This document shows, piece after piece, positions 5,286-45,017 of a stretch of DNA of 64,000 nt; within the stretch, counting starts at the first letter, position 1, and every line of letters starts with the position of its first letter. A model generated the notes under the pieces. That model was not told the DNA's origin. It searched no databases and worked only from the letters and a program-made list of their open reading frames with translations. This DNA comes from Chitinophaga pinensis (GTDB lineage: Bacteria > Bacteroidota > Bacteroidia > Palsa-965), in NCBI GenBank assembly GCA_943372645.1, contig CALRZN010000011.1, forward strand, positions 20,200 to 84,199, in the 5' to 3' direction. Both the position numbers and the translations under genes were made by a program.

Positions 5286-5440
5286 GACATGAGACGAATA
5301 GATGTGAGATATGAGACTCCCGCTTTCCGGGAACTGAAGTCTCAAATCTCATATCTGTTTGTCTCAAATCTCAAATCTAAAAGTCTGATGTCTGAAAATC
5401 TCATATCTGGTTGTCTCATATCTGAAGTTTATGTTTCGTA
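5286..5440. promoter_or_regulatory. Divergent promoter region with at least 5 copies of a ~13-nt motif GTCTCAWATCTCA in direct and inverted orientation
   Basis: Seen directly: gtctcaaatctcatatctg (5339), gtctcaaatctcaaatcta (5361), gtctgatgtctgaaaatctcatatctgg (5383), gtctcatatctgaag (5413), inverted gagatatgagac (5306-5317). The 240-bp gap lies between the divergent gmhA-like operon and the POT transporter. Confidence 0.5.
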
Positions 5441-10345: not shown

Positions 10346-10407
10346 ATTTTCGTCGGTAAACAACTTTCATCCTATTCCATTTTAGTTTTAAAGTAGCAGA
10401 TCATTTA

Positions 10408-10560
10408 CCCGTTAATGTGCCGAAAATCCGGGAGGAAACCGAATACGCGGCCGGTACGAAAAAGCCAAATACATAAAAGACAGAAATCCCTTTCAGTTGG
10501 GGTTACCCGTTGATGCGCCATGCATGGCGCATCAACGCGAACCAAAAACAAAAAACGAAC
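10408..10560. repeat. Composite repeat element copy A, containing the perfect 28-bp palindrome GTTGATGCGCCATGCATGGCGCATCAAC (10509-10536)
   Basis: Conserved ~110-bp left module (cgttaatg.gccg.aaatccgg...aaccgaatacgcggccggtacgaaaaagccaaatac.taaaagacagaaatccctttcagttggggttaccc) followed by the palindrome and an A/C-rich tail gcgaaccaaaaacaaaaa. Shared with copies B-E. Confidence 0.85.
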
Positions 10561-10663
10561 CCGGAACCAAACGTAACACGAACTTTACCGTGAACAGGAA
10601 TCCCAAACGAAAATCGCCCCCATTCCCGCGCGTAAATAAAAACCTCCTGCGTACCTTTACCCC

Positions 10664-11150
10664 AATGACCAATCCACCTCCCTCCAATTTCGAACGCATG
10701 CTCGCCCTCATCGACGAGGTGTTTGCCACGCGCAGCGATCCCGATCAGCTGCAGGTGGATGAAACGGTGATTGAAAAGCTGCAGGCCATTCACCCGGCCA
10801 CACTGGGCGAATACAACGAGGGAAACGGCCCCTGCGTGTGGGTGCTGGTGATTCCGACCACGAAAGAAGTGATGAATGATTTCCTGGCGGGGCGCATCAC
10901 CGAACAGCAGCTGCTCGATAACACAAAACCCGGTCAGCAGTTTGAAGCACTGTACCTCTGCTCCGCCACCGTGCTCCCCGAATACCGCCGCCGTGGGCTT
11001 GCACTGAATCTTTGTATTGATGCTGTAAATGCGATTCAGCAGCAGTATCCGCTGCAGTACCTGTACACCTGGCCGTTTACGCCGGAGGGCCGCGCACTGG
11101 CCGAACACGTGGCAAAAAAAACAGGGCTGACGCTTTTTTCCCTTCCCTGA
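10664..11150 (+). CDS. Putative GNAT-like N-acetyltransferase (small, 162 aa)
   Basis: Real start probably ATG 10664 (MTNPPPSNFERMLAL...). The upstream part of the listed ORF is the repeat element read through. VLPEYRRRGLALNL resembles the GNAT motif A (R-x-x-G-x-A). Confidence 0.4.
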
Positions 11151-11214
11151 GTTTTTATAAATCCAAAAACGGTATCGCGGTTGAAAAAACGACTTATCGG
11201 GAAAACCAAAAAAT

Positions 11215-11580
11215 CCATTTCAATTGGAGTTACGCGTTGAACCGCCGGAAATCCGGAAAGAAAACGAAAGCGCGGCCGGTACGAAAAAGCCGAATACGTA
11301 AAGACAGAAATCCCTTTCAGTTGGGGTTACCCGTTGATGCGCCATGCATGGCGGATCAACGCGAACCAAAAACAAAAACGCCCCCAAAACCAGCAATCGC
11401 ATAAAATAATGCGAACCGCTAACCCCAAAAGTAAAAACAGCAGCTGTTGATCCGCCATGCATAGCGGATCAACGCGAACCAAAAACGCCCCCAAAACCAG
11501 CAATCGCATAAAATAATGCGAACCGCTAACCCAAAAGTAAAAACAGCAGCTGTTTCGATATACCCTATCTTTGGGAAATG
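11215..11580. repeat. Composite repeat element copy B: both hairpin modules plus two near-perfect 28-bp palindromes (11333-11360, 11444-11471) and a ~112-bp tandem duplication (about 2 copies)
   Basis: caattggagttacgcgttgaaccgccggaaatccggaaagaaaacgaaagcgcggccggtacgaaaaagccgaatacgtaaagacagaaatccctttcagttggggttacccGTTGATGCGCCATGCATGGCGGATCAAC. The unit gatcaacgcgaacc...aatcgcataaaataatgcgaaccgctaacc..cagcagctgtt recurs at 11353 and 11467. Confidence 0.85.
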
Positions 11581-11639
11581 ATTTCCGGCGCATGCCAGCC
11601 CTTTAACGTAAAATCAATACTCACCGGGATCATCTGCCT

Positions 11640-12173
11640 ATGAAATCACTCCGGCTGCTCTCCTTTTTTGTACTCCTGGCCTGTTCCTGTTTTGCCCAGG
11701 AGAAGCTAAAATTTACTGACCGGTTGTATGGCGCCGACATGGCATCTACTTACCACTATATACAAGGACGATTTTCCTGGATGCCTTCGAATTTATTATA
11801 TGGTATTCAATACAAAAGAATCCGCTCCGACAACGAGGCCGGCGTTTTCACATTTGAAACCGGGCAAACGTTCTCCCTGAACTATACAAAACTGAACGGG
11901 CAGGATATGTTGAATACGAACCTGGAAGCACACTTCCGGTCGTTTCCGTTAACCGCGGGAATAATCCGGATCGGGGCGGGTATTGATTACACTACCGATT
12001 TTCAGCAGCGCAATTTCTTGTCCGTATATCCTTCTGCGGGTTTGGATATCGGCGGTATTGAAATCATTTACGCGTATCTCATCAATGGAAAAAAAGCTGC
12101 AGAAATTTCAGATCACCGGATAAGCCTTGCTTTCGGACTATGGGTGAAATCGAAAAAAAACGAGAGCCGTTGA
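11640..12173 (+). CDS. Hypothetical secreted protein (signal peptide; possibly a small beta-barrel/OMP-like)
   Basis: 177 aa; N-terminal MKSLRLLSFFVLLACSCFAQE signal peptide. Alternating hydrophobic pattern and C-terminal aromatic residues. No recognisable catalytic motif. Confidence 0.4.
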   Translation: MKSLRLLSFFVLLACSCFAQEKLKFTDRLYGADMASTYHYIQGRFSWMPSNLLYGIQYKRIRSDNEAGVFTFETGQTFSLNYTKLNGQDMLNTNLEAHFRSFPLTAGIIRIGAGIDYTTDFQQRNFLSVYPSAGLDIGGIEIIYAYLINGKKAAEISDHRISLAFGLWVKSKKNESR

Positions 12174-12266
12174 CAACCGTAACAGGAAATGCATCCGGAC
12201 ATACAGGCATGAAAACAACTGTAACGCGCTGATCGTATTAATACCAACAACTAAAAAAACAAAACC

Positions 12267-12968
12267 ATGCTGACGATAGACAATTACTTAGACAGCCACT
12301 ACATCCACCGGAGCAATTGGTTGCGGGCAGCCGTGCTGGGCGCCAACGACGGCATCATTTCCATTTCGAGCCTTGCTGTGGGTGTGGCTGCGGCAAGTTC
12401 GGATCGTGAACCGATTATTCTCGCAACCGTTGCCGGACTTGTGGCGGGGGCGTTATCCATGGCTGCCGGGGAATATGTATCGGTAAGTTCACAAACCGAT
12501 ACCGAAACGGCCGACATTGAACGGGAAAAACGGGAGCTTAAAGAAATGCCGGAAGCGGAGCTGAACATTCTGGCCCAGATTTATGAACGTCGCGGACTGA
12601 AAAAAGAAACGGCCATGCAGGTGGCCATTGAACTGACGGAAAAAGATGCCCTCGGCACACACATCAGGGACGAACTGGGCATTAACGAAATAAGCCAGGC
12701 GAAACCCATACAGGCCGCCGTCGCATCGGGCGCATCATTTACCGCCGGGGGCCTGCTGCCCATGCTGGCTGTGCTTTTTGCGCCGATAAAAGGAATGGAA
12801 TACTGGCTTTATGGATTCACCATTATTTTCCTCGTTGTGCTCGGCGCCATAGCCGCACGGGCCGGCGGATCAAGCATCCGGAAAGCAATTCTGCGCATCA
12901 CCATCTGGGGCACCATTGCAATGGGATTATCCGCAGGCGTAGGATATATTTTTGGCGTTAAGGTTTAG
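12267..12968 (+). CDS. VIT1/CCC1-family iron/manganese transporter
   Basis: 233 aa; WLRAAVLGANDGIISISSLAVGVAAA...MAAGEYVSVSSQ is the VIT family N-terminal signature. Central acidic loop, C-terminal TM helices. Confidence 0.8.
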   Translation: MLTIDNYLDSHYIHRSNWLRAAVLGANDGIISISSLAVGVAAASSDREPIILATVAGLVAGALSMAAGEYVSVSSQTDTETADIEREKRELKEMPEAELNILAQIYERRGLKKETAMQVAIELTEKDALGTHIRDELGINEISQAKPIQAAVASGASFTAGGLLPMLAVLFAPIKGMEYWLYGFTIIFLVVLGAIAARAGGSSIRKAILRITIWGTIAMGLSAGVGYIFGVKV

Positions 12969-12974
12969 AAAAAA

Positions 12975-13360
12975 CGAATCGCGGCCGGAACGAAAAAAAC
13001 GAAAAGAAACGCGGAAAATCCCTTTCAGTTGGAGTTACGCGTTAATGCGCCGGAAAATCCGGAAAGAAAACGAAAGCGCGGGCGGTACAAAAAGTAAAAT
13101 AAGTAACGAAAGAAAAACATTCGGGTTTGTATTCCCCGTTGATGCGCCATGCATGGCGCATCAACGCGAACCAAAAACAAAAACGATCTGCTTTCAAAAC
13201 GAAATTGAACCTGGAACAGGGATGAATCCAAAACCGACGCATCAACGCGAACCAAAAACAAAAACGATCTGCTTTCAAAACGAAATTGAACCCGGAACAG
13301 GGATGAACCAAAAACCGGCGCATCAACGGCGAACCAAAAACAAAAACGATCTTCATTTAA
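12975..13360. repeat. Composite repeat element copy C: duplicated left module, perfect 28-bp palindrome (13138-13165), then ~81-bp tandem repeat x ~2.4 (13158-13355)
   Basis: Each tandem unit starts with the right half-palindrome gcatcaacgcgaaccaaaaacaaaaacgatctgctttcaaaacgaaattgaacc.ggaacagggatgaa.ccaaaaccg. Repeats at 13158, 13239, 13319. Confidence 0.85.
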
Positions 13361-13431
13361 CGATATTTAATAACCCCAATACCAGCCGTTTCGTTTTATA
13401 CCCGAAATTTGGCAAAACCAACCCAGCTACT

Positions 13432-13752
13432 ATGCCCACGAAATACAAAGCCACATTTCTTCTGCTCCTTGCTTCTGCCCTCCCCTGTTTTGCAGGCGGA
13501 TTAAAAGGCGGGCCGTTTATCAGCGATACAATGATTTATGTTTTCTTCGGTTATCTTATTTTTGTACACGGGCTCGGCATTGTAACGTTTGTACTGCGTA
13601 AACTCTGGCTCCGCATCGTTTCCGGTATTTTATACCTTCCTGTTTTTCTTGTGGTTGTCGGTCTCTTTTTTATCAACCCGCTGATTGGCGTTGCCGCCCT
13701 GCTTTTTGCAATGGTCTTTTTGATTTTTCTCATCATCTGGCCGCGTAAATGA
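13432..13752 (+). CDS. Small membrane protein (106 aa), paralog 1 of a tandem pair
   Basis: MPTKYKATFLLLLASALPCFAGG... N-terminal signal/anchor plus 2-3 predicted TM helices. Ends ...IWPRK*. The upstream part of listed ORF 12952..13752 is repeat read-through. Confidence 0.5.
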   Translation: MPTKYKATFLLLLASALPCFAGGLKGGPFISDTMIYVFFGYLIFVHGLGIVTFVLRKLWLRIVSGILYLPVFLVVVGLFFINPLIGVAALLFAMVFLIFLIIWPRK

Positions 13753-13799
13753 GTACCCTATACAGGATAAATGGCTTACGCCTTTAGATAAGTAAATCA

Positions 13800-14114
13800 A
13801 TGCCTGGTAAATACACCGCGACACTGCTGCTCCTCTGTTCTGCAATACCCTGTTTTGCAGATGAAGTGGAACCCATCAAGCTTTTCAGCGATACGTTTAT
13901 TAACAGTTTGCTTGCATACATCTATTTTGTGCATGTGCTGGCTATCGTAGCATTTTTTTTACGTTACGAATGGTTGCGTGTAGTTGCAGGTGTACTCTAC
14001 GCACCTGTATTTTTGATTCCAACAGGCCTCTGCTTTGTCAATTTTGCTTTTGCGCTTCTCTTTCTTTTTACCGGGGCATTTTTCACCTTTACCATCATTA
14101 TCAGACGTAAATGA
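13800..14114 (+). CDS. Small membrane protein (104 aa), paralog 2 of a tandem pair
   Basis: MPGKYTATLLLLCSAIPCFADE... same architecture and same C-terminal ...IIRRK* as paralog 1. Stop overlaps the start of the next gene (TAAATGA). Confidence 0.5.
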   Translation: MPGKYTATLLLLCSAIPCFADEVEPIKLFSDTFINSLLAYIYFVHVLAIVAFFLRYEWLRVVAGVLYAPVFLIPTGLCFVNFAFALLFLFTGAFFTFTIIIRRK

Positions 14115-16015
14115 GCACCCGTATCCGCATAGTCCTGCTTGCCCTGCTGCTCTGTAGTTCCATTGCCGGCGTGTGGATCTATTTTTACAAATCGCGCACC
14201 GCACCGGTGAAAACAGATGACCTGGCGTTTGTGCATACACTAAACACCTCCGCCGATTTTCAAAACTTTGCCGGGGCCCCGCTCGACAATGCGTACCCGG
14301 ACATCAGTAGCGTAAAAGCGGTGTACGACCTCGACCGGAAAGAAATCTACTACATAAACTCGAACCTGTACCGGCTGCACTTCGATTTCTGCAGCAAGGT
14401 GCTGGGGTATAAAATGGGACTGCGTTTGTTCAACATTGCCAACTACGGCAGCGAACGCGATTATTATTTAGCCAACATCAATTACCTGCGGAAAAGCAAC
14501 AGCTATGTGCTGGAGTTTGGCATGTACGATGAAATAGACAGCGTACAGATTGCGGAGATGTTCAACAAGGTGCGTGAAAGTCCGCTGTTTATCAACAACC
14601 TGCGCCTGCTGCTGAACAATACGAACAGCATTCAGTATTTCAGCAACGGAAAAACCATTCCCACCTGCAACCCGAATGAACTGAACGACGGCCTTCCCTT
14701 CCAGGCCATCCAGCCCGGCACCTGCACCGGCAGGCTGGTGGTGTGCGACGATCTGAAAACACAGTATCTTACCATTACGCCCGGTGATATTCTTGTACTG
14801 AAAGGTTCACCCACTGATATTCCTTTGTGCAAAGCCATTATCAGCGACTGTTTTCAGACCCCGCTGAGCCACATCCAGGTGCTGAGTCACAATAAAAAAA
14901 TGCCTTCGGCGTATTTGAAGGATGTTTTTACAAACAACAGCATTACACAATACAACGGGCAGTATGTAAAACTGGTGGTTACAGCCGACACGTTGCGCAT
15001 TACACCCGCTTCGCCGGATGCGGTGGAAGAACAGCAGCAGCAAAAGGTCGTTTTAAAATTAAACACAGCAATTCATTCCATTGTGCCGATTGAAAAATGC
15101 AGCAACCTTACCAACGCCGATATCGGAACAAAAGCAAAAGGATTCTCCGACCTGAAACAGATCGCTGATAAAAACTTCAGCCTGTTTCGTGTGCCGGAAG
15201 GTGCGTTTGTGATCCCGTTTTATTTTTACCGGCAGCACCTGCAAAACGCAAACGTTGCCCCGCAGCTGGTCGCACTGGAACAATGTCCTGCACACGAAAC
15301 ACAAAAGATGGATGAACTGCTGAGGCAGATCCGCAAAGCGATTGAAGAAACACCGGTTGATGCCGGGCTGCTGCTGCAGATCAACACGCAGATCCGCAAA
15401 AACAACTGCGGTAACAGTTACCGCTTCCGCAGCAGCAGCAATGCCGAAGACCTCGCCGAATTCAGCGGGGCCGGGCTGTACACCAGCAAAACCGGCGAAC
15501 TGAACGGGAAGAAAAAAACAATTGAACGTGCCATCAAAAAAGTGTGGATCAGCATGTACAACTACCGCGCTTACCAGGAACGCCGCTTCGCACATATTGA
15601 TGAAAACACCGCTGGTATGAGCATACTCGCGCACCGGAATTTCCCGGATGAAGACATCAACGGCGTAATTATTACCAAAAACAACTACCGCGCGAACTAC
15701 CCCGGCCTGGTAATCAATGCGCAGCTGGGCGATGTATCAACCGTAAGTCCGCCCGACAGTGTGCGCTGCGAACAGTTGATACTGACGGAGAACAAACTGA
15801 TGAATCCGTTCAGCAAAAAAGTAAGCGCGAAATACATCTGCTTCAGCAGCCTGCACACCGAAGGGCCGCTGCTGCGGTATGAACAGTTGCTGCAGCTTCA
15901 GCAAAGCACCAAAGCCGTGCAGGAATTTTATGCCGCAAAGAAACTGGACTGGGATATTGAGTTTAAGTTTGAAGGCGGTATTCTGTATTTTAAACAGGTA
16001 AGGCCGTACAGGTAA
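14111..16015 (+). CDS. Membrane-anchored PEP-utilizing-enzyme homolog with permuted domain order (swivel phospho-His-like domain before the PPDK_N-like nucleotide-binding domain)
   Basis: 634 aa; N-terminal TM helix. GDILVLKGSPTDIPLCKAIISDCFQTPLSHIQVLSHNKKMP resembles the PEP-utilizers mobile domain (GeILV..t.P.w.....aaiit..GGrTSHAAIvARE.G.P). About 190 aa further downstream, FRSSSNAEDLAEFSGAGLYTSK...KKVWISMYNYRAYQERR resembles the PPDK_N/PpsA ATP-binding motif (VRSSATAEDLPGASFAGQQET...CYASLFTDRAIKYR, compare ppsA at 31431). Confidence 0.55.
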   Translation: MSTRIRIVLLALLLCSSIAGVWIYFYKSRTAPVKTDDLAFVHTLNTSADFQNFAGAPLDNAYPDISSVKAVYDLDRKEIYYINSNLYRLHFDFCSKVLGYKMGLRLFNIANYGSERDYYLANINYLRKSNSYVLEFGMYDEIDSVQIAEMFNKVRESPLFINNLRLLLNNTNSIQYFSNGKTIPTCNPNELNDGLPFQAIQPGTCTGRLVVCDDLKTQYLTITPGDILVLKGSPTDIPLCKAIISDCFQTPLSHIQVLSHNKKMPSAYLKDVFTNNSITQYNGQYVKLVVTADTLRITPASPDAVEEQQQQKVVLKLNTAIHSIVPIEKCSNLTNADIGTKAKGFSDLKQIADKNFSLFRVPEGAFVIPFYFYRQHLQNANVAPQLVALEQCPAHETQKMDELLRQIRKAIEETPVDAGLLLQINTQIRKNNCGNSYRFRSSSNAEDLAEFSGAGLYTSKTGELNGKKKTIERAIKKVWISMYNYRAYQERRFAHIDENTAGMSILAHRNFPDEDINGVIITKNNYRANYPGLVINAQLGDVSTVSPPDSVRCEQLILTENKLMNPFSKKVSAKYICFSSLHTEGPLLRYEQLLQLQQSTKAVQEFYAAKKLDWDIEFKFEGGILYFKQVRPYR

Positions 16016-16020
16016 GCGAA

Positions 16021-16260
16021 CAAAATCGCCGCCGTTACGAAAAAGCCAAATACGAAAAGAAAGAAATCCGTCCAGGTTTGTATTCCCCGTTGATGCGCCA
16101 TGCATGGCGCATCAACGCGAACCAACAACGCCAGGAAAACGCGAACCAAAAACGAAAAGGAATTTCGAACTAAAAAAAAACCATCAACGCGAACCAAAAG
16201 CGAAAAGGAATTTCGAACTAAAAAAAGCGGATCAACGCGAACCCCAAATCCGGAAGAACC
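16021..16260. repeat. Composite repeat element copy D: left module, perfect 28-bp palindrome (16089-16116), then 48-bp tandem repeat x ~2.5 (16117-16245)
   Basis: Units gcgaaccaaaa.cgaaaaggaatttcgaactaaaaaaa..c..atcaac each end in the right half-palindrome (atcaacgcgaacc at 16111, 16183, 16230). Confidence 0.85.
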
Positions 16261-16390
16261 GGATACCGACGGATCGGCTTAGTCCCCAGGGGAAAGCGGC
16301 GCAACCACCCATCCACAAACTTCTGCTGTTCGCCCCGGACCCAATACCATATTCGGGCTTCCATTATCTTTATGCAATTAAACACACGTT

Positions 16391-19300
16391 TTGAAAACAT
16401 TCTTGCGGCTGATTTTCCTGCCTTTCCTGTTGTGGTGTTCCGTTTATGCGAATGCCCAGGGAACGAATTATATCGTGCAGAAAAAACTGTACACGTATTC
16501 CGACGGCATACCGGGAAACAAGGTGTCGTGCGTGGCGCAGGACGAACTGGGCTATATCTGGATCGGAACCACTTACGGAATCTGCCGTTTCGACGGGCGC
16601 AGGTTTGAAGTCTTTACCCCAAAAACACACGGACTGCAGAACAAACCGGTCGGCATGGTGTATTCCGACGGGCAGCACGGACTCGTTATTGCCTATCAGA
16701 GCAGTTTTTACGACAACCAGGTAACATATGAAAACCTGGATGTGCTTGACATCCGCACGCTGCAGGTGAAACCGCTTGATGTGTATTACCGCAACATGCC
16801 TTTCGCACGCGACCAGGTTCACAACCTCTATGTAGATCAGCGTAACCGGGTAAAAGGATTTTTTATTACGCCTTATGATTATTATAATATCCAAACCCGC
16901 GTTAGCTGCCCCCGCTGGATTCCCGATGCTAACGGCGGGCTTGTGAAAAAAGAACGCACCGTAAGGAAATGCGTGATTTTTGAAGACAACGGCAAAACGG
17001 AAACTGCCAAAAGTGTGGACTTTCAAGCACAAACCGATTTGCGTTCCGTTGACCTGGTGCTGATGGCCGACAGCGAGCTTATACTTAACGAACAGGATCA
17101 ACAGCAATTTGTTTTTCGCGACGACAGCGGCAATGTGTTTCGGCGGACGGATACGCGTGGAAAATGGGGATATTATTTCATCAGTTATGCAGGTGATGTG
17201 CACTACCTCGGCGAAACCCAGGCTGCAATAGGGAATTATACAGCACAACTGCAGAACCAGTACACGAGTCAATGCTACGGACTGGAGGAAGGACCGCAGC
17301 ATTATCTTGCTGTTTTTTCGCGGGAAACGGGCGCTGTTCCGGTAACCGATTCGACTGACCGGGAGGAACTGAAACGTGCGCATCCCATCAGCATGATCCG
17401 CGACCGCACCGGCAATTACTGGATCGGTACCACGGAAGGGTTGCTGAAAGTAACGCTTGCTGAAAAATATTTTCATACGTTATATACTGCAGCAACCGAA
17501 CCGGTGAACGGAAACCAGTCGGTGCGCGGCATTCTTGTGCTTCCTGATTTTTCAGCGGTGGCGCTGGGCAGTCACCAGAACATCCGATACAAGGACAGGG
17601 TATATCGCACCCCAACAAACTTCAATCATTCGTCGCTCTATTTCAACAACACGTTATGGCTGGGATCCTTTGATTTAAAAACTTTTGATTTTGTTACCGG
17701 CCAAACCATACAGAAACAGCAATCTGCCAGCGACGAAATATGGAGCATGTTCCCGTGCGGCGGCAACCGCATTTTATTAGGCTGCACCAAAAACCTCGAT
17801 GTTTACGACTGCGACGCGGATACGATTACGCATATTGATGCGGGTGTGTTTCCGGTTCCGCAACTGGTGTATCGCATTTTTTCTGCAGGCGAAAACCGGA
17901 TCATCTGCGTGGCCTCCAACGGCATTTATGAACTGGACAGCACGTGCCGCATACGCGATTATTTCGGTAAAAAGGCCGGGCCGGCAGAACACCGGTTGCC
18001 TTTCGAAAACATCAACGACCTGCATATCGACCGGCAGGGTATTTATTGGTTCGCCACTGCGCAGGATGGGCTGTTCCGCTGGGACCGCACGCATAACGCG
18101 TTTACCCGTTTCGGTATTGATGACGGATTTTTAACTGCCAAACTCTGCCGCATCGAAGCGACTGGTACAGACATTCTCTGGATCAGTACGGATTTCGGAC
18201 TGGCCCGTTTCAACAAACAAACCGGCCGTGCAAAAACATACACCACTGCCGAAGGTCTTCATCACAATGAATTTAACCGCAGTTCCAGTTTCAAAGATGC
18301 TTCCGGAAACCTGTGGTTCGGTACCATTGACGGATGTGTATATTTTACCCCGGAAGACCTTGCCGGTACTGCCGCACTTGCCACCAGTCCGTTTCTCATC
18401 CGCAGCATCGCCAGGTTCAATCCGGCCACCAGCATGCAGGAAGATGTTTCGGAAGAACTGCGTGAACGCGGATACCTCGAACTGCGCGGCAACAGCCGGA
18501 GCCTCAGCCTCCGTGTGCTGCTGCTCGATCTGCAGGAACGCGAACACCTCTATCTGTACGAAATCAAAGGGCAGGATCCGGAGAAAAAATATGCGTACGA
18601 TGGACAGATCAACCTCAGCAACCTGCCTTATGGTACATTCACACTCGTAATAACCGCGCAGCAGGCTGACGGTACGTGGAATACACAGCCCTTAAAAATA
18701 GAATTGCATGTGCTGCCGCCATTTTACCGGTCAGCATGGTTTATTGCATTGGTCATCATTGTGCTTATTCTCCTCGTATGGCTGTATTTCCGCTACCGGA
18801 TACGCAAAATAAGCAAGGAGAAAAAACGACTGGAAAACACCGTAACAGAACGTACAGCCGAACTGCGTGCATCGCTGGCGGAGCAAACCGCATTACTCCA
18901 GGAGGTGCATCACCGCGTTAAAAACAACCTCCAGTTTATCGTGGCCATGCTGCAGATGCAGATCAATGCAGTGAAAGATGAAACGAACAAGGCAGTACTC
19001 AAAGACACGTCGCTGCGGATTAACGCGATGAGCCTTGTGCATGAAATGCTCTATAACAAAGACAAACTGGAATACATTGCCATCGAAACCTATCTGCACG
19101 AACTGGTCTCCAAACTGCGTGAACTGGTTTATGCAGAACATACACCGGTTACAATTAAACTGGATATTGACCCGGTAAAATTTAATGTAAATGAGAGCGT
19201 TGCATTGGGTATGCTGACTTCGGAGATTATCAGCAATTCCATTAAATATGCGTTTGCCGGCAATCCTGATCCGCTTATTGAAATCAGCCTGAAATTCGCT

Positions 19301-19498
19301 CCCGGCAGTAAAACAATAACCTACCGCATTGGGGATAACGGCTGCGGTATAAACGAAAACAACAAAGGCAAAGGTCTTGGCCTGCGGCTGATTGATATTT
19401 TTTCACGGCAGCTGGAGGCTACATACAAAATAAACAACGGGAACGGTTTAACCTTTTCCTTTGAAATTCCATACACGCCCGATGAAAAACCTGTTTAA
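16391..19498 (+). CDS. Sensor histidine kinase with periplasmic two-component-regulator propeller/Y_Y_Y domain, TM helix, HisKA_2-type phosphoacceptor and HATPase_c
   Basis: 1035 aa; signal peptide, repeated ...YIWIGT.. propeller motifs, TM FIALVIIVLILLVWLYF. HHRVKNNLQFIVAMLQMQ (HisKA_2 H-box). C-terminal GDNGCGI...GKGLGLRLI (ATP lid). Listed start codon is TTG, so the start is uncertain. Confidence 0.85.
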   Translation: MKTFLRLIFLPFLLWCSVYANAQGTNYIVQKKLYTYSDGIPGNKVSCVAQDELGYIWIGTTYGICRFDGRRFEVFTPKTHGLQNKPVGMVYSDGQHGLVIAYQSSFYDNQVTYENLDVLDIRTLQVKPLDVYYRNMPFARDQVHNLYVDQRNRVKGFFITPYDYYNIQTRVSCPRWIPDANGGLVKKERTVRKCVIFEDNGKTETAKSVDFQAQTDLRSVDLVLMADSELILNEQDQQQFVFRDDSGNVFRRTDTRGKWGYYFISYAGDVHYLGETQAAIGNYTAQLQNQYTSQCYGLEEGPQHYLAVFSRETGAVPVTDSTDREELKRAHPISMIRDRTGNYWIGTTEGLLKVTLAEKYFHTLYTAATEPVNGNQSVRGILVLPDFSAVALGSHQNIRYKDRVYRTPTNFNHSSLYFNNTLWLGSFDLKTFDFVTGQTIQKQQSASDEIWSMFPCGGNRILLGCTKNLDVYDCDADTITHIDAGVFPVPQLVYRIFSAGENRIICVASNGIYELDSTCRIRDYFGKKAGPAEHRLPFENINDLHIDRQGIYWFATAQDGLFRWDRTHNAFTRFGIDDGFLTAKLCRIEATGTDILWISTDFGLARFNKQTGRAKTYTTAEGLHHNEFNRSSSFKDASGNLWFGTIDGCVYFTPEDLAGTAALATSPFLIRSIARFNPATSMQEDVSEELRERGYLELRGNSRSLSLRVLLLDLQEREHLYLYEIKGQDPEKKYAYDGQINLSNLPYGTFTLVITAQQADGTWNTQPLKIELHVLPPFYRSAWFIALVIIVLILLVWLYFRYRIRKISKEKKRLENTVTERTAELRASLAEQTALLQEVHHRVKNNLQFIVAMLQMQINAVKDETNKAVLKDTSLRINAMSLVHEMLYNKDKLEYIAIETYLHELVSKLRELVYAEHTPVTIKLDIDPVKFNVNESVALGMLTSEIISNSIKYAFAGNPDPLIEISLKFAPGSKTITYRIGDNGCGINENNKGKGLGLRLIDIFSRQLEATYKINNGNGLTFSFEIPYTPDEKPV

Positions 19499-20156
19499 AA
19501 TATTAATTGTTGATGATGAAGTGCTGATTGCTGAGTTTCTGAAAGATGTACTCACCGGCCTGGGATACGCGCAGCTGATGCTGGCCCACAACCGGAGACA
19601 GGCCATAATTCAGCTCGAAGAATTCAAACCGGACCTCGTATTGCTCGATATCCGGATGAAAGAAGAACTGGAAGGCATCCAGATTGCTGAACGGATTAAC
19701 CAGGAGTTCAAAATTCCGTTTATTTACATCACCGCACAGTCGGACAAAGAAATCATCGGCAAAGCGCTCAGTACAAAACCGGCCGGTTATATTACCAAAC
19801 CATTCAAACAGGCCGACGTGTTTGCAGCCATCCGGCTGGTGGAAGAAAACGCCGAAAGCAGCAGCGAAAAATTTCTTGTTTTTAAAGACGGTTACGATAC
19901 GATCAAACTCTCAGTTGACGATGTTTTATATGCCAAAAGCAACGACAACTATATTGATGTTTATACCACCACGAAAAAATACACCCTGCGTTATACGCTC
20001 GACTGGTTGTGCGAAAATACACCTGACGGCATGTTCCACCGCACGCACCGCTCGGCGGTGGTAAACATTACCAAAATTACACGGGCCACATCGAAATCGG
20101 TTTTTATCGGCGAGGTGGAAATACCGGTCTCCCGCGGGAACCAGGTAAAGCTGTAA
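19482..20156 (+). CDS. LytTR-family response regulator (REC + LytTR DNA-binding domain)
   Basis: MKNLFKILIVDDE...LLDIRM (receiver domain with phospho-Asp). C-terminal LytTR domain ...YAKSNDNYIDVYTTTKKYTLRYTLDWL...FHRTHRSAVVN. Start overlaps the kinase stop (operon). Confidence 0.85.
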   Translation: MKNLFKILIVDDEVLIAEFLKDVLTGLGYAQLMLAHNRRQAIIQLEEFKPDLVLLDIRMKEELEGIQIAERINQEFKIPFIYITAQSDKEIIGKALSTKPAGYITKPFKQADVFAAIRLVEENAESSSEKFLVFKDGYDTIKLSVDDVLYAKSNDNYIDVYTTTKKYTLRYTLDWLCENTPDGMFHRTHRSAVVNITKITRATSKSVFIGEVEIPVSRGNQVKL

Positions 20157-20379
20157 GTTTTACACACTGCATTTTTATACCGGCCGGGCAGCATAAAACG
20201 CCCCGGTTACCGGCTATAAAAAAACAGCATTCACCACGTTTTCTGCTGCAGTTGTGATTACCCCCTGTCATTTAACTACAAACTTTTGCTGTTCACCCCG
20301 GTTTTGAAAAAGCAGGGAGGGAACTCCTTTTTTTTGTACAACAAAAGAGCAGTAGAAAAGACCTAAAAAATTTAAAACC

Positions 20380-22848
20380 ATGTTCAGAAAAACAATGACA
20401 CTTATAGTTGCTGCCATACTTTCCCTTCCGGGTATGGCGCAGCAGCAGCGTACTAACAGCGAAAGTCAAACCGGCGGCATCACGCGGTCAGCTGATTTAC
20501 CGGGAAGTCCGGCTACCGTTCCCGGTGCAGCCCTGCATTTCGACGGAACCAACGACCTGGTGAACAATACCAACCCGGCTTTTGATTTTAACACCGGCAC
20601 TGCAGAATGCTGGTTTAACGCGGCCCCGTCAACCGGCAACAAATGTGTGATGGCCATGCGCACCAGTACCTCCGGAGCACGCTGGAGCATTCACGTGAAT
20701 GAAGGAGGCAACGAAATCGGTTTCTTCAACGGGGCCTCCTATATCGGACTGCCTGCAGTCATCAACGCGAATACCTGGTACCACCTCGCCGTAGTGATGA
20801 ACACTACCAATACCTATGTGTATCTGAACGGAACAGCTGTGGGTACAATTTCACTCGGGCTCCAGGCCAGTGCCACCGGGCAGCCATTCTCCATCGGCGG
20901 ACACTATGACCTGGCCTGGCCCGAATACTTCAATGGTATGATTGACGAAGTGCGCATCTGGAACCGTGCCCTCTGCGCTTCAGAAATACAAAACAACAGG
21001 AATGGTGAAATACCTGCAGCTGCACCCGGGCTGATTGCAAACTACCATTTCAACGAAGGAGTTGCCGGCGCCAACAATGTTTCTGTAATCTCCCTTCCCG
21101 ACGCCAGCGGCAACAACATCCACCTCGTATTAAATGGCTTCCTGCTGTCCGGATCAACGTCCAACTGGATTTCACCGGGCGCTGTAACTTCAGGAAGCAG
21201 TATCACACCGTACATCAGCACCAGTGTTTCATCAGCCAACATTACCTGCAACGGCGCAGGAAACGGTACTGCAACTGTAACTGCTTCCGGCGTAGGTCCG
21301 TTTACCTACAGCTGGGCACCTTCGGGTGGCACGGGTCCGACTGCTTCTGGTCTCTCGCCGGGAACATATACCTGCACGATAAATGGCGGCTGTGCTTCCG
21401 TAACGCAAACGGTGACGATTACACAACCTGCCGCGATTTCGCTTTCCACGGCGGTAACCCACATTTCCTGCGCCAGCAGCAACGACGGCGCCATTAACCT
21501 TACCGTAACCGGCGGCACCGGCCCCTTCAGCTACGACTGGTCGTTTGGTTATACCACCGAAGACATCAGCGGACTTTACCCCGGAACATATATGGTAACT
21601 GTTACGGATGCCAACGGCTGTACCGCAACCAGCCAGATGGTAACGGTATCGTATGCGTCCACCCTTTCCTCATCACTTAGCATTGCACCTTTTCCGTGCA
21701 ACAGTCCGACAACCACCGCTACGGTTACCGCATCGGGCGGAACACCGGGTTATACGTATTCGTGGTCGCCTTCGGGTGGCAACGGGGCAACAAGCACACC
21801 GCTCACACCGGGATATTATAGCTGCACGGTACAAGATGCGGCAGGCTGTATCTCTTCCCAGAGCATGATCATCACAACGCCCGCAACACTAACCGCTACG
21901 TCTGCTGTAACATCCAACTTCAACGGATATAACATAAGCTGTTACGGCGCTGCCGACGGCCAGGTAACTGTTATGCCTTCCGGCGGCACACCACCTTATA
22001 CCTACATGTGGAACAATGGTGGTATAACACAAACGATAAACAATGTGGCCATGGGCATGTACACCTGCACGGTTACCTGCTCCGGCGGATGTGTTTATAC
22101 AACAGCCCCGGTTAACGTACAGTTTCCTGCACAGCTTTCAGCAGGCAGCGTGGTAACACAGGTATCATGTACCAACACCAGCAGCGGTGCAATTGACCTC
22201 ACCCCGGCCGGTGGCGCAGGTTCATACACGTTTGCCTGGTCGAACAACGCAAACACCGAAGATATAAGCGGACTTACTGCCGGAATATACAGCGTTACGC
22301 TGACGGATATAAACGGCTGCACCGCCACTGCTTCGGTTACGGTAACACAGGCCACAGCCCCGGCCGTAGCATATACCGAACCGATGGATTCGGTTTGCCA
22401 GCTGACCACCGCGCCCTTCACACTCAGCGGTGCATCTCCTGCCGGCGGAACGTGGAGTGGAACCGGTGTAACCGACACCATTTTTAATCCGGGTACTGCA
22501 TCGGTTGGATTTAACGTAATCACGTACACGTACACCGACAACCTGGGGTGCACCGGTTCGGCAACAGATTCGGTTTATGTGGACATCTGCACCGGCCTGG
22601 ACGAAAATGCGTTGCAAACGATGCACATTTATCCCAATCCTTCGGGTGGTTATTTTAATCTGCAGTTACAAACCCCTGCAGCAGTTATGCTTGAACTTTT
22701 TGCTGCCGACGGCCGGCTGATAAAGCGTGAGCAGTACAACGGAACAACAGCCGTTACCCTTAACCTGGGTGATGAAGCCGCAGGAATTTATTTTCTCCGG
22801 CTCACCTCGGGCGATACCATTAAAACCGCGTACCTGGTGCGGCAGTGA
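20380..22848 (+). CDS. T9SS-secreted protein: N-terminal LamG/concanavalin-like domain, multiple SprB-type repeats, C-terminal Por sorting domain
   Basis: 822 aa; signal peptide. ...MIDEVRIWNRAL (LamG_3-like). Repeats ...TCNGAGNGTATVTASGG.PFTYSW.PSG...GTYTCT..D.NGC... (SprB repeat pattern). C-terminus MHIYPNPSGGYFNLQL...GIYFLRLTSGDTIKTAYLVRQ (T9SS CTD). Confidence 0.8.
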   Translation: MFRKTMTLIVAAILSLPGMAQQQRTNSESQTGGITRSADLPGSPATVPGAALHFDGTNDLVNNTNPAFDFNTGTAECWFNAAPSTGNKCVMAMRTSTSGARWSIHVNEGGNEIGFFNGASYIGLPAVINANTWYHLAVVMNTTNTYVYLNGTAVGTISLGLQASATGQPFSIGGHYDLAWPEYFNGMIDEVRIWNRALCASEIQNNRNGEIPAAAPGLIANYHFNEGVAGANNVSVISLPDASGNNIHLVLNGFLLSGSTSNWISPGAVTSGSSITPYISTSVSSANITCNGAGNGTATVTASGVGPFTYSWAPSGGTGPTASGLSPGTYTCTINGGCASVTQTVTITQPAAISLSTAVTHISCASSNDGAINLTVTGGTGPFSYDWSFGYTTEDISGLYPGTYMVTVTDANGCTATSQMVTVSYASTLSSSLSIAPFPCNSPTTTATVTASGGTPGYTYSWSPSGGNGATSTPLTPGYYSCTVQDAAGCISSQSMIITTPATLTATSAVTSNFNGYNISCYGAADGQVTVMPSGGTPPYTYMWNNGGITQTINNVAMGMYTCTVTCSGGCVYTTAPVNVQFPAQLSAGSVVTQVSCTNTSSGAIDLTPAGGAGSYTFAWSNNANTEDISGLTAGIYSVTLTDINGCTATASVTVTQATAPAVAYTEPMDSVCQLTTAPFTLSGASPAGGTWSGTGVTDTIFNPGTASVGFNVITYTYTDNLGCTGSATDSVYVDICTGLDENALQTMHIYPNPSGGYFNLQLQTPAAVMLELFAADGRLIKREQYNGTTAVTLNLGDEAAGIYFLRLTSGDTIKTAYLVRQ

Positions 22849-22870
22849 ACCATTCAGGAACTATGAGCAA

Positions 22871-22902
22871 AACGCATCCGTATTTCCGGGTGCGTTTTTT
22901 TT
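22871..22902 (+). terminator. Rho-independent terminator after the T9SS SprB-repeat gene
   Basis: aacgcatccg-tatttc-cgggtgcgtt (10-bp stem with one G·U wobble) followed by tttttttt. Lies 23 nt after the stop at 22848. Confidence 0.7.
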
Positions 22903-22907
22903 GATAC

Positions 22908-23035
22908 CCGTTGATCCGCCGGAAAACCGGAACGTAAACGAAAGCGCGGCCGGTACGAAAAGCAAAATACGGAAAGAAAGAAATCCGTTTTAGTCGGAGT
23001 TACCTGTTGATGCGCCATGCATGGCGCATCAACAA
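22908..23035. repeat. Composite repeat element copy E with the first hairpin (gttgatccgccggaaaaccgg) and the perfect 28-bp palindrome (23006-23033)
   Basis: cccgttgatccgccggaaaaccggaacgtaaacgaaagcgcggccggtacgaaaagcaaaatacggaaagaaagaaatccgttttagtcggagttacctGTTGATGCGCCATGCATGGCGCATCAAC. Sits immediately downstream of the terminator. Confidence 0.85.
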
Positions 23036-23213
23036 GTACCCAAAACAAAGACGAAACTGAAACGGAGAACCTGAACGAACTACGATCTTCGTTATTCCCG
23101 GCAGAACGACGCCTACCAAAAAACATATAATCACCGCGTTCCCCGTTCCTTCCCAAAACCTGTTAATCTGTTACCGTTGCAGCCAATAACTTTCTAATTT
23201 TGGATGCAATTCC

Positions 23214-44133: not shown

Positions 44134-44946
44134 ATGGGGAAAATTATTGCAATAGCAAATCAGAAGGGCGGAGTCGGAAAAACAACGACAGCAATTAACC
44201 TGGCGGCCAGCCTCGCCGTACTCGAATACCGTACACTGCTGGTAGATGCCGACCCGCAGGCCAACGCCACTTCCGGTGTAGGCCACGATCCGAAGAACGT
44301 AAAAACGAGCATTTACGAGTGCATCATCGAAGACCGCGATCCGAAAGACGTGATTCTTACAACCAGCACGCCCCACCTCGACCTGCTGCCCGCACACATC
44401 GACCTGGTAGGTGCTGAAATTGAAATGATCAACCTGCCCAGCCGCGAAAAAATGATGCGCCATGTGCTCGGCAAAATCAAAAACAACTACGATTTTATCA
44501 TTCTCGATTGTTCACCTTCACTCGGCTTGGTAACGGTTAACTCGCTCACGGCTGCCGATTCGGTGATTGTGCCGGTGCAATGTGAATACTTTGCACTCGA
44601 AGGACTGGGCAAACTGCTGAACACGATTAAAATTGTACAGACACGCCTCAACCCGGACCTGGCCATCGAAGGCATCCTGCTCACGATGTACGACATCCGC
44701 CTGCGCCTGAGCAACCAGGTAGTGGAAGAAGTGAAAACACATTTTCAGAGCATGGTGTTTGATACAATTATCCAGCGCAACACCAAACTGGGCGAAGCAC
44801 CGAGCTTCGGCGAAACCATCATCATGCACGATGCAACCAGCAAAGGCGCAATCAACTACCTGAACCTGGCGCGCGAAATTCTGCAGAAAAACAACATGAC
44901 GCGGATGAGCGATGAAGAAAAAATCATCAACCTCACCGGCAAATAA
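44134..44946 (+). CDS. parA: Chromosome partitioning ATPase ParA/Soj
   Basis: KIIAIANQKGGVGKTTTAINLA deviant Walker A. 270 aa. Confidence 0.9.
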   Translation: MGKIIAIANQKGGVGKTTTAINLAASLAVLEYRTLLVDADPQANATSGVGHDPKNVKTSIYECIIEDRDPKDVILTTSTPHLDLLPAHIDLVGAEIEMINLPSREKMMRHVLGKIKNNYDFIILDCSPSLGLVTVNSLTAADSVIVPVQCEYFALEGLGKLLNTIKIVQTRLNPDLAIEGILLTMYDIRLRLSNQVVEEVKTHFQSMVFDTIIQRNTKLGEAPSFGETIIMHDATSKGAINYLNLAREILQKNNMTRMSDEEKIINLTGK

Positions 44947-45017
44947 GTAACGCATTATGCAACTACCAATCCTGCCGGCACCCGCCAGCAGGATTTTATT
45001 TTCAGAAGGATAAAACG

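What the first reader, a model, noticed from the sequence alone, without database searches (positions are those of the whole stretch)
10408..23035. Undescribed composite palindromic repeat family (REP/BIME- or MITE-like) occupying almost every intergenic gap in a 6-kb stretch, plus one distal copy
Six copies of the 28-bp palindrome GTTGATGCGCCATGCATGGCGCATCAAC are present. Four are perfect (10509, 13138, 16089, 23006) and two carry a single mismatch (11333, 11444). Each is embedded in a conserved ~110-150-bp element with a second hairpin (cgccggaaa(a/t)ccgg), a conserved gcgcggccggtacgaaaaag...aaatccctttcagttggRgttac spacer and an A/C-rich tail (gcgaaccaaaaacaaaaa). Copies sit after mnmE, after the GNAT-like gene, after the VIT transporter, after the dikinase homolog, and directly after the terminator of the T9SS SprB gene. 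That is 5 loci in 64 kb, all intergenic. No transposase is present, so the elements appear non-autonomous. Translating them gives spurious ORFs sharing ...VDAPCMAHQR... in both orientations.
Basis: seen in the sequence. Interest (0 to 1): 0.7.

Follow-up and report, generated by a model that had tools for sequence, protein, structure and literature searches.

The report
Palindrome-cored intergenic repeats in plastic region
A real, apparently undescribed family of 150-400-bp non-coding repeats, built around an almost invariant 28-bp palindrome, sits at the ends of gene units in one fast-changing chromosome region of a group of uncultured Bacteroidota; it behaves like the REP/BIME elements of E. 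coli or the stem-loop cassettes of T4-type phages, not like a jumping MITE.

Summary
GTTGATGCGCCATGCATGGCGCATCAAC occurs six times in five intergenic gaps (0 expected by chance). Two details need correcting: the sixth copy is at 11446, not 11444, and has 3 mismatches, not 1.

Each copy has three parts: an A/G-rich ~85-97-nt "U" segment, the palindrome, then an A/C-rich tail. Isolated half-palindromes come from tandem duplications that start or end at the palindrome centre.

The family is absent from Rfam, GTDB representative genomes, IMG/VR, plasmid and phage collections, and the literature searched. I found it in six related genomes (coding DNA 82-92% identical), often at orthologous sites. 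Between orthologous copies the palindrome is 95% identical, against 70% and 57% for its flanks. Two compensatory double changes keep the pairing.

All copies share one orientation. They start 0-63 nt after a stop codon and lie upstream of the next promoter box. About 87 kb sampled outside the mnmE-to-SprB zone holds no copy. Gene-content differences between relatives lie next to copies. I saw no terminal inverted repeats, target-site duplications, transposase or recombinase.

Best reading: a vertically inherited, REP/BIME-like (or PeSL-like) 3'-end hairpin module that is fragile and recombinogenic. A RAYT-driven REP system or a new recombination site is not excluded. It is a new variant of a known kind.

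The parts
10405..10558 (+). Element E1, after mnmE (stop at 10345). Left half-site GTTAATGTGCC 10411-10421; U segment 10422-10508; palindrome 10509-10536 (perfect); tail 10537-10558.
   Evidence: An orthologous copy with the same left flank is in L074. A decayed ortholog lies upstream of the GNAT-like gene in L073.
11165..11554 (+). Element E2, after the GNAT-like gene (stop at 11150). Partial U 11165-11235; left half-site GTTGAACCGCC 11236-11246; U 11247-11332; palindrome 11333-11360 (C22G); tail; second palindrome 11446-11473 (G7C, G18A, C22G); tail to 11554. This is a 107/113-nt tandem repeat of 2.0 copies.
   Evidence: L006 has a palindrome-less short version at the orthologous site.
12970..13352 (+). 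Element E3, after VIT1 (stop at 12968). Partial U 12970-13040; left half-site GTTAATGCGCC 13041-13051; U 13052-13137; palindrome 13138-13165 (perfect); 81-nt tandem repeat of 2.4 copies at 13157-13352. Each unit restarts with the right arm (CATCAAC at 13240 and 13321).
   Evidence: The right flank is orthologous in L005, L006, L007 and L008.
16016..16243 (+). Element E4, directly after the PPDK_N-domain gene (stop at 16015). 5'-truncated U 16016-16088; palindrome 16089-16116 (perfect); tail with a 48-nt tandem repeat of 2.2 copies. Right half-sites at 16182-16188 and 16229-16236.
   Evidence: Orthologs are in L005 (11942) and L007 (2883). L006 has a palindrome-less remnant.
22905..23080 (+). 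Element E5, immediately after the canonical terminator (22869-22898) of the SprB/T9SS gene. Left half-site GTTGATCCGCC 22910-22920; U 22921-23005; palindrome 23006-23033 (perfect); tail variant 23034-23080. The next promoter-like -7 box, TAATTTTG, is at 23195.
   Evidence: The orthologous copy is at L006 17859-18038.
10346..16390 (+). Hyperplastic zone between the mnmE stop and the start of the histidine-kinase gene. Relatives differ here by gene-module gains and losses, nearly all next to an element.

Best explanation
This is a vertically inherited, lineage-restricted family of cis-acting intergenic modules. I call the parts U (~85-97 nt, A/G-rich), the 28-bp perfect palindrome (11-bp arms plus ATGCAT), and the tail (20-50 nt, A/C-rich).

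Shown:
- Each module sits in the 3' zone of the upstream transcription unit, in the sense orientation. It starts 0-63 nt after the stop codon and lies upstream of the next gene's promoter box.
- The palindrome is kept by selection, both as a pairing structure and as a sequence.
- The palindrome centre is a breakpoint for tandem duplications. These produce left half-sites upstream and right half-sites downstream.
- Copies are concentrated in one hyperplastic region, where related species differ by gene modules bordering them.

Inferred mechanism:
- When transcribed from the upstream gene, the palindrome forms a 12-13-bp hairpin of -23 to -25 kcal/mol. This hairpin marks or protects the transcript 3' end, as REP/BIME elements do in E. 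coli and the stem-loop part of PeSL cassettes does in T4-type phages.
- In DNA the same palindrome extrudes as a hairpin or cruciform. This makes it fragile, and the dispersed direct copies become substrates for duplication and deletion.
- The family has therefore spread and rearranged locally by recombination, not by transposition.
- The invariance of the loop and arms suggests that a trans-acting protein, not identified here, also reads the sequence.
For: Reality and anatomy:
- Six copies against 0 expected.
- RNAalifold keeps only the palindrome hairpin.
- The hairpin energy is -23 to -25 kcal/mol as RNA and -17 to -18.5 as DNA, with z about -6.

Conservation:
- The family is in six other genomes (L005, L006, L007, L008, L073, L074). 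Their coding DNA is 82-92% identical to the window.
- Between orthologous copies the palindrome is 95% identical, against 70% for the 60 nt upstream and 57% for the 60 nt downstream.
- 97.4% of hairpin cells are paired. There are two double changes: G7C/C22G at window 11446 and A5C/T24G in L008. The closing pair varies as CG, UG and UA and is never broken.

Position:
- All copies are co-oriented with the upstream gene, including the one between convergent genes in L005.
- TAnnTTTG boxes, where present, always lie between the palindrome and the next start codon.
- No canonical terminator follows mnmE, the GNAT-like gene, VIT or PPDK.

Fragility:
- Tandem repeats of 107, 81, 48 and 78 nt begin in the right arm.
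- L007 has a single tail where L005 has the duplicated one.

Local confinement and plasticity:
- There are no copies in the window outside 10.4-23.1 kb.
- There are none in L010, the 21 kb around parAB on another contig of the L005 metagenome, or in L009.
- Gene-module differences border the elements.
Against: - No transcript data exist, so a 3'-end function is inference only.
- The hairpin has no U-tract.
- At E5 a canonical terminator already precedes the element, so a terminator role is not needed there.
- An RNA hairpin alone does not explain an invariant loop or perfect dyad symmetry to the centre. That points to a sequence-reading protein, which would fit a RAYT, a recombinase or a repressor.
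- Wobble evidence for the folded strand is mixed. The closing pair favours the + strand, but three of four single changes inside the stem favour the - strand.
- Only about 87 kb outside the zone was sampled, so a low-density genome-wide family cannot be excluded.
- The link between elements and indels is partly trivial, because nearly every long gap in the zone holds an element.
Confidence: 0.4

Rival explanations
1. A true REP/REPIN-type system. The palindrome would be the hairpin substrate of a single-copy Y1 HUH transposase (RAYT) encoded elsewhere in the genome. That enzyme would copy and maintain it on single-stranded DNA, and the window would simply hold a dense patch.
For: - The element is extragenic, sits downstream of genes, and is hairpin-centred.
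- Sequence and pairing are conserved across species at orthologous sites. REPIN-RAYT systems are described as vertically inherited and long-lived (abstracts listed).
- RAYT subclasses 2.4 and 2.6 occur in Bacteroidetes, with 'double foot' and atypical structures (PMC6006769).
- The arms begin GTTG and end CAAC, which resembles a double foot GT[AG]G...C[TC]AC.
Against: - There is no unpaired GTAG/GTGG/CGTC foot; the GTTG is base-paired.
- There are no inverted REP doublets.
- There are 0 copies in about 87 kb outside one zone.
- No Y1_Tnp hit appears in any ORF scanned or in the precomputed Pfam lists of the fetched loci.
- No insertion polymorphism with defined ends was seen.
Confidence: 0.22
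2. A site-specific recombination site. The 11-6-11 palindrome would be the core site of a recombinase encoded elsewhere. The genes between copies would be cassettes that are excised or integrated, as in integron arrays, Acinetobacter pdif modules or accreted cis-mobilisable islands.
For: - The 11-bp arm + 6-bp centre + 11-bp arm geometry equals that of dif/pdif sites.
- All sites are co-oriented at gene 3' ends.
- One-gene and few-gene modules are flanked by copies in one genome and absent in others. Examples are DUF2200 and HxlR-hydrolase-218aa in L005.
- An 'empty' 113-nt unit lies between two palindromes at 11333 and 11446.
- Half-sites break exactly at the centre.
- The palindrome at 11333 is a left(wild-type)/right(variant) hybrid.
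- The array lies at the 3' end of mnmE. From my own knowledge, this gene is a known island integration site in other phyla.
Against: - The central ATGCAT is itself symmetric, so it would give no directionality. Natural tyrosine-recombinase sites have asymmetric spacers.
- No recombinase lies within the array or within 10-40 kb.
- All seven arrays are ordered subsets of one gene order. I saw presence/absence only and no shuffling.
- Some extra genes lie between the upstream gene and the element with no second site: 141 aa in L008, and 362aa-AraC-DUF1398 in L006.
- The conserved U and tail flanks are not expected for a bare core site.
- Tandem duplication explains the half-sites.
Confidence: 0.15
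3. An operator or roadblock site. A dimeric DNA-binding protein would bind the palindrome to co-regulate or insulate the units of this gene cluster. Candidates are the conserved LytTR response regulator at 19461-20156, or another factor. This would be akin to the 'stoperators' of mycobacteriophages.
For: - Perfect dyad symmetry runs to the centre, and the sequence, loop included, is invariant across species.
- Copies are confined to one gene neighbourhood that always contains the HK/LytTR pair.
- The arm (A/C)CCGTTGAT resembles the LytTR 9-mer consensus. That consensus is recalled from memory and is a low-information match.
Against: - The distance from the palindrome to the next start codon varies from 116 to about 275 nt because of tandem repeats.
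- One copy lies between convergent genes, where there is no promoter.
- Symmetric double changes are better explained by base pairing than by a dimer site.
- From my own knowledge, LytTR regulators usually bind direct, not inverted, repeats.
- The conserved orientation of U and tail relative to the upstream gene is unexplained.
Confidence: 0.1
4. A MITE mobilised by a DDE transposase encoded elsewhere.
For: The size range of 150-250 bp, the lack of coding capacity and the multiple copies all fit. The 11-bp left and right half-sites are inverted repeats of each other.
Against: - The palindrome is internal, not terminal.
- Element ends are ragged and there are no target-site duplications.
- Orthologous old copies dominate.
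- Every copy has the same orientation.
- The half-sites are explained by centre-anchored tandem duplication.
Confidence: 0.03

Closest known systems
REP/BIME elements of Enterobacteriaceae and GTAG/CGTC-tagged REP superfamilies (PMC3733652)
   Same: Both are short GC-rich extragenic palindromes downstream of genes. Both combine with other motifs into composite, variable mosaics, lack coding capacity, are family-specific to a lineage and are recombinogenic. REPs are hypothesised to act in transcript 3'-end stabilisation and termination.
   Different: Here the palindrome is perfect to its centre and has no unpaired GTAG/CGTC foot. Copies are never in alternating or inverted pairs. Conserved asymmetric flanks of about 100 nt travel with it. 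As far as sampled, copies are confined to one zone of about 13 kb.
REPIN-RAYT systems (PMC3116915; bioRxiv 10.1101/2021.07.10.451892; PMC6006769)
   Same: Both show vertical inheritance, long persistence at orthologous sites and conservation of a hairpin sequence. RAYT subclasses with atypical or 'double foot' REPs exist in Bacteroidetes.
   Different: No RAYT was found and there are no REP doublets. Copy number and dispersal are untested and look low. Evidence for replication by transposition is lacking.
PeSL regulatory cassettes of T4-type phages (PMC2839356, PMC4122927)
   Same: Both are conserved intergenic modules containing a stem-loop. Both are concentrated in hyperplastic regions, flank the genes that differ between close relatives, and appear to recombine to give deletions and replacements.
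   Different: PeSLs carry a strong promoter next to the stem-loop, are in phage genomes and are shown terminators. Here there is no promoter motif inside the element, the context is chromosomal, and no functional data exist.
dif/pdif sites and dif modules of Acinetobacter (e.g. PMC6449649, PMC13141974)
   Same: Both are 28-bp sites with 11-6-11 geometry that recur between small gene modules whose content differs between relatives.
   Different: pdif sites have distinct XerC and XerD arms and an asymmetric spacer, alternate in orientation and have no conserved flanks. Here the site is fully symmetric, always has the same flanks, and no shuffling of module order is seen.
Integron attC sites / CALIN arrays
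   Same: Both are co-oriented conserved repeats directly after stop codons of small cassettes in a variable array that lacks a nearby integrase.
   Different: From my own knowledge, attC has the order R''(..AAC)...R'(GTT..), forms an imperfect long hairpin and has extrahelical bases. Here the order is GTT...AAC, the stem is a perfect 11-13-bp one, and no long-range pairing occurs.

Membership tests
REP / REPIN-RAYT | Short (20-40 nt) palindrome able to form a hairpin | tested here: met
   The palindrome is 28 nt and forms 12-13 pairs. Energy is -23 to -25 kcal/mol as RNA and -17 to -18.5 as DNA. It is perfect, whereas REPs are usually imperfect.
REP / REPIN-RAYT | Conserved unpaired 5' tetranucleotide foot (GTAG/GTGG, or CGTC) | tested here: not met
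   The arms start with GTTG, which is base-paired with CAAC. The flanks are (C/T) and G/A with no GTAG or CGTC. Definition taken from PMC3733652 and PMC6006769.
REP / REPIN-RAYT | Inverted doublets (REPINs) as the common unit | tested here: not met
   All 19 copies and all flanks have one orientation, and no inverted pairs were seen.
REP / REPIN-RAYT | Many copies dispersed over the genome | tested here: inconclusive
   There are 0 copies in about 87 kb outside the mnmE-to-SprB zone (window 51 kb, L005 flanks 15 kb, L010 21 kb).
REP / REPIN-RAYT | Cognate Y1 transposase (RAYT) gene flanked by the repeats | not testable with these tools
   None is present in the 64-kb window or in any fetched locus. 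The rest of the genomes could not be read.
BIME | Alternating-orientation REP types separated by defined linker motifs | tested here: not met
   The composite structure comes from direct tandem duplications anchored at the palindrome centre.
MITE | Terminal inverted repeats at the element ends | tested here: not met
   The palindrome is internal. Left ends (TACCC + left arm, or truncated U) and right ends (tail) are unrelated to each other.
MITE | Target-site duplication; filled versus empty sites | tested here: not met
   No direct repeats flank any copy. Differences between orthologous gaps are deletions, duplications or gene-module indels, not clean insertions.
Integron attC | R''-L''...L'-R' imperfect hairpin with AAC...GTT order and extrahelical bases; intI/attI nearby | tested here: not met
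   The order is GTT...AAC, the stem is perfect, and no long-range pairing occurs. No integrase was found in the Pfam scans. The attC definition is from my own knowledge, and no attC covariance model was available.
Xer dif/pdif site | 11-6-11 site with distinct XerC and XerD arms and an asymmetric central region | tested here: not met
   The geometry is met, but the arms are exact reverse complements and the centre ATGCAT is symmetric. Recombinase binding is not testable.
Intrinsic terminator | GC-rich hairpin followed directly by a U-tract | tested here: not met
   The hairpin is followed by GCGAACCAAAAAC or similar. The terminator scan reports none of the 28-mer hairpins as a terminator; its one hit touching a copy (- strand, 11458-11437) is a different, weaker stem. 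Its strongest site, and the only convincing intergenic one on the coding (+) strand, is the terminator at 22869-22898.
PeSL-like regulatory cassette | Promoter plus stem-loop in one conserved intergenic module, enriched in hyperplastic regions | tested here: inconclusive
   The stem-loop and the hyperplastic-region association are met. No sigma-70-like or Bacteroidetes TAnnTTTG box lies inside the element; the boxes lie downstream of it.
Any Rfam RNA family | Match at gathering score | tested here: not met
   There are 0 matches in the window. Only chance-level hits (E of 1.4 or more) touch the elements.

The most novel reading that the evidence does not exclude
The 28-bp perfect palindrome would be the recombination site of a so far unknown chromosomal gene-cassette system in Bacteroidota. 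Gene modules downstream of mnmE would be excised or captured by a recombinase or HUH nuclease encoded elsewhere. That enzyme would cut at the palindrome centre (ATGCAT). The system would be integron-like or dif-module-like in logic, but with a new, fully symmetric site type and conserved arm-like flanks.
Probability: 0.12. Interest if true: 0.8.

Novelty: new variant of a known kind. Interest (0 to 1): 0.45.

Why it matters
- It adds a well-delimited case of a repeat family that is old, vertically inherited and under clear selection on a palindrome. The lineage is a poorly studied, uncultured Bacteroidota group known only from metagenomes and MAGs.
- It shows directly, from orthologous comparisons, how a long perfect palindrome seeds centre-anchored tandem duplications and marks the borders of gene gain and loss.
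- If the palindrome proves to be read by a dedicated enzyme, the locus would be a compact natural model. It could inform either REP maintenance outside Proteobacteria or a new cassette-exchange system.
- Practically, the elements break short-read assemblies. Every Logan contig of this region ends inside one. They also generate spurious ORFs, which matters for MAG annotation.

Tried and rejected
1. Exact and N-relaxed 28-mer scans found nothing in GTDB representative genomes, JGI metagenome contigs or IMG/VR.
2. Using the spurious ORF peptides as a proxy DNA search in the 5.8-billion-protein database gave no hits, not even the known partial ORF.
3. blastn of locus 2 against plasmids and phages gave nothing.
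4. The nearest GTDB genome (L002, 67% aa) shares only two genes and has no element, so it was uninformative.
5. The last metagenome scan, with the 18-mer core, returned 62 contigs. None has family flanks. About 25 are the 5' end of a group II intron family, which I judge a coincidence of an 18-mer in about 10^12 bases.
6. A non-canonical parS reading was rejected. The site is too long, and it has conserved asymmetric flanks and tandem halves. In the L005 metagenome parAB is on another contig, with no copy within 10 kb on either side.
7. Structured RNA in U or the tail was rejected. RNAalifold keeps only the palindrome hairpin. The small UCCN...NGGA hairpin and the CCGGAAAWCCGG hairpin are not maintained in all copies.
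8. An attC-like long hairpin was not seen.
9. A full-text search for either 11-mer arm found only unrelated primers.
10. Inferring the folded strand from wobble pairs gave mixed signals.

Full report
**1. Observation**

The 28-mer GTTGATGCGCCATGCATGGCGCATCAAC matches six times in the window, allowing up to 3 mismatches. No match appeared in any of 100 dinucleotide-preserving shuffles.
- Four copies are perfect: 10509, 13138, 16089 and 23006.
- The copy at 11333 has one mismatch (C22G).
- The sixth copy is at 11446, not 11444, and has three mismatches (G7C, G18A, C22G).

A profile built from the five loci finds no further copy anywhere in the 64 kb, on either strand.

The five loci lie after five genes (Pfam; sequences):
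- mnmE;
- a weakly GNAT-like gene;
- a VIT1 transporter gene;
- a gene for a 634-aa PPDK_N-domain protein;
- a SprB-repeat/T9SS gene. Here the element follows a canonical terminator.

None of about 47 ORFs scanned in the window is a transposase or recombinase.

**2. Anatomy**

Alignments resolve each locus into three parts:
- U, an A/G-rich segment of about 85-97 nt (...cggaaagaaaacgaaagcgcggccggtacgaaaaagcc...gaaagaaatccgtt...gttaccc, or ...gtattcccc);
- the palindrome;
- an A/C-rich tail, G(Y)G(W)ACCAAAA(W)CAAA(R)ACG, of 20-50 nt.

Everything else in the 'mosaic' is tandem duplication anchored at the palindrome centre.
- Upstream there are extra [U + left arm] units. This gives left half-sites such as GTTGATCCGCC|GGAAAACCGG.
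- Downstream there are extra [right arm + tail] units. This gives right half-sites such as (ATGG)CGCATCAAC|GCGAACC.
- Tandem Repeats Finder reports 107 nt x 2.0 at 11333, 81 nt x 2.4 at 13157 and 48 nt x 2.2 at 16138. In the relative L005 it reports 78 nt x 1.9, twice.
- An orthologous comparison shows the event directly. L007 has one tail where L005 has the duplicated one.

It is missing at locus 4 and loses complementarity in L006 and L008. RNAalifold on 12 copies keeps only the palindrome hairpin.

**3. Finding relatives**

Direct DNA and peptide searches failed. The route that worked started from the neighbouring PPDK_N-domain protein.
- It has homologues at 83-88% identity. Their contigs, plus contigs carrying near-identical MnmE and ParB, could be fetched.
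- Six further genomes carry the family: L005 (JGI 3300045051), L006, L007, L008, L073 and L074. Their coding DNA is 82-92% identical to the window.
- Across the seven genomes I count 19 palindromes plus one decayed copy. Twelve are perfect over the length seen.
- Logan contigs of this region end inside the elements (L001, L003, L004, L007, L008, L074). This shows the elements act as assembly-breaking repeats.

**4. Evolution**

Several copies are orthologous between genomes.
- The copy upstream of the 106-aa membrane-protein gene is present in five genomes.
- The copy after PPDK is present in three, with a palindrome-less remnant in L006.
- The copy after the SprB terminator is present in two.
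- The copy after mnmE is present in two, with a decayed copy in L073.

Over ten orthologous pairs, identity is 70% for the 60 nt upstream, 95% for the palindrome and 57% for the 60 nt downstream. The palindrome is therefore under constraint that its flanks lack.

The constraint includes base pairing.
- 97.4% of cells in a 12-pair stem are paired.
- Two pairs changed on both sides. One is G7C/C22G at 11446, with the half-changed state at 11333. The other is A5C/T24G in L008, which is again a perfect palindrome.
- The closing pair outside the 28-mer is CG, UG or UA and is never broken.

The constraint also includes sequence. The loop ATGCAT is changed in one copy only.

**5. Position and distribution**

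- Every copy has the orientation of the gene upstream of it. This includes the L005 copy that lies between convergent genes.
- Elements begin 0-63 nt after a stop codon.
- Where a Bacteroidetes-type -7 box (TAnnTTTG) exists in the gap, it lies downstream of the palindrome, 19-74 nt before the next start codon.
- No canonical terminator follows mnmE, the GNAT-like gene, VIT or PPDK.

The elements thus occupy the 3' zone of the upstream unit.

I found no copy in the rest of the window (51 kb), the outer parts of L005 (15 kb) or L010. L010 is 21 kb around parAB on another contig of the L005 metagenome. That makes about 87 kb in total. L009 (13 kb), a relative with different genes after mnmE, also has none. 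The family is therefore concentrated in one zone, from the mnmE stop to the SprB/MORN genes.

**6. Link to gene-content change**

Between the mnmE stop and the histidine-kinase gene, the seven genomes differ at almost every junction.

| Module | Where it is found |
|---|---|
| bpMoxR-VWA | L005 and L006; the window has E1 at that position |
| hyp177 + E2 | missing in L005 |
| 362aa-AraC-DUF1398 | only L006, before E3 |
| a 141/142-aa gene between PPDK and its element | L008 and L073 |
| HxlR-hydrolase-218aa-E | only L005 |
| DUF2200-E | L005 and L073 |

All arrays are ordered subsets of one gene order. The pattern therefore looks like differential loss and duplication next to the elements. It does not look like cassette shuffling. 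From the kinase gene to the MORN-repeat gene the genomes are collinear.

**7. Interpretation**

The best-supported reading is a REP/BIME-like, or in behaviour PeSL-like, cis module. It provides a very stable 3'-end hairpin (-23 to -25 kcal/mol) that punctuates transcription units. Its DNA palindrome is fragile at its centre, and its direct copies favour duplication and deletion.
- Shown: its reality, anatomy, conservation, compensatory changes, orientation, placement, centre-anchored duplications, local concentration and adjacency to indels.
- Inferred: transcription into the element, a role at the transcript 3' end, hairpin or cruciform extrusion as the cause of fragility, and recognition by a protein.

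The invariance of the loop and the perfect symmetry argue that some protein reads the site. That keeps three rivals open: a RAYT-type HUH transposase (rival 1), a recombinase (rival 2) and a repressor or roadblock protein (rival 3). A MITE is disfavoured, because there are no terminal inverted repeats, no target-site duplications and no clean filled/empty pairs.

**8. Comparison with known families**

The element fails defining REP features that could be tested.
- It has no unpaired GTAG/CGTC foot and no inverted doublets.
- The RAYT and copy-number criteria could not be tested on whole genomes.
- It shares the 11-6-11 geometry of dif/pdif sites but not their asymmetry.
- It has neither attC architecture nor a terminator U-tract.
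- It has the PeSL stem-loop and the association with a hyperplastic region, but no internal promoter.
- It matches no Rfam family. I found no paper that mentions either arm in a relevant context.

**9. Verdict**

The finding is real and more interesting than a window-only duplication. It still belongs to the broad, known class of extragenic palindromic repeat modules, so I rate it a new variant of a known kind. Interest is moderate (0.45). The score rises only if the palindrome turns out to be the site of a dedicated enzyme (probability about 0.12 for a new cassette-recombination system).

Noticed in passing
L014 3575-3592, L022 5658-5675, L063 8732-8749, L011 2861-2878, L034 316-333, L041 3626-3643 (metagenome contigs): The 18-nt core of the palindrome (TGCGCCATGCATGGCGCA), preceded by G and followed by TAGCTAGGCGGT, is the first hairpin of a group II intron family. 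Rfam RF02001 matches begin 65-85 nt downstream. The family occurs in many unrelated metagenome contigs. There is no intron in the window, so I judge this a coincidence.
   Followed up: partly
window 2073-3378 (- strand); L004 3129-4395: A GT4 glycosyltransferase is split into two overlapping ORFs of 220 and 217 aa. One holds the Glycos_transf_1 C-half and the other the Glyco_transf_4 N-half. The same split is present in the independent Logan contig. It is either a frameshifted pseudogene or a genuinely split gene.
   Followed up: no
window 5344-5431: Three direct copies of about 36 nt (AAATCTCATATCTGKTTGTCTCAWATCT...) lie in the gap upstream of the POT-family transporter gene. They are unrelated to the palindrome family.
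   Followed up: no
window 44134-45929 and whole window: parA and parB are present, but no canonical parS (TGTTTCACGTGAAACA, up to 3 mismatches) occurs anywhere in the 64 kb. In the L005 metagenome the parAB region is on a different contig from the mnmE region.
   Followed up: partly
window 13432-14114; L005 9401-10000; L006 8943-9263: Tandem paralogous genes encode small membrane proteins of 106 and 104 aa upstream of the PPDK_N-domain gene. The second paralog is absent in L006 and L008. In L005 a copy of the repeat element occupies its place.
   Followed up: partly
window 51099-52166 (- strand): A RES-domain toxin and Xre-type antitoxin pair. It is conserved at the same place in L010.
   Followed up: no
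window 50060-50633: Dense CCGCCGCCG-type repeats lie inside the gene for a PKD/T9SS-sorted protein on the - strand. This is low-complexity coding sequence. It caused the only half-site-like chance match outside the element loci (50086).
   Followed up: no
L001, L003, L004, L007, L008, L074 (contig ends): Logan contigs of this region end inside the repeat elements, several at or within the palindrome. The family therefore fragments short-read assemblies and leaves partial spurious ORFs at contig ends.
   Followed up: yes
window 16300-16390; L005 15560-15650; L006 11270-11355; L073 6740-6832: The roughly 90 nt upstream of the histidine-kinase gene (ccacaaacttctgctgttcgcccc...attcgggcttccattatctttatg) is highly conserved in all relatives. 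The rest of that gap is not. It is probably the kinase promoter or leader.
   Followed up: no
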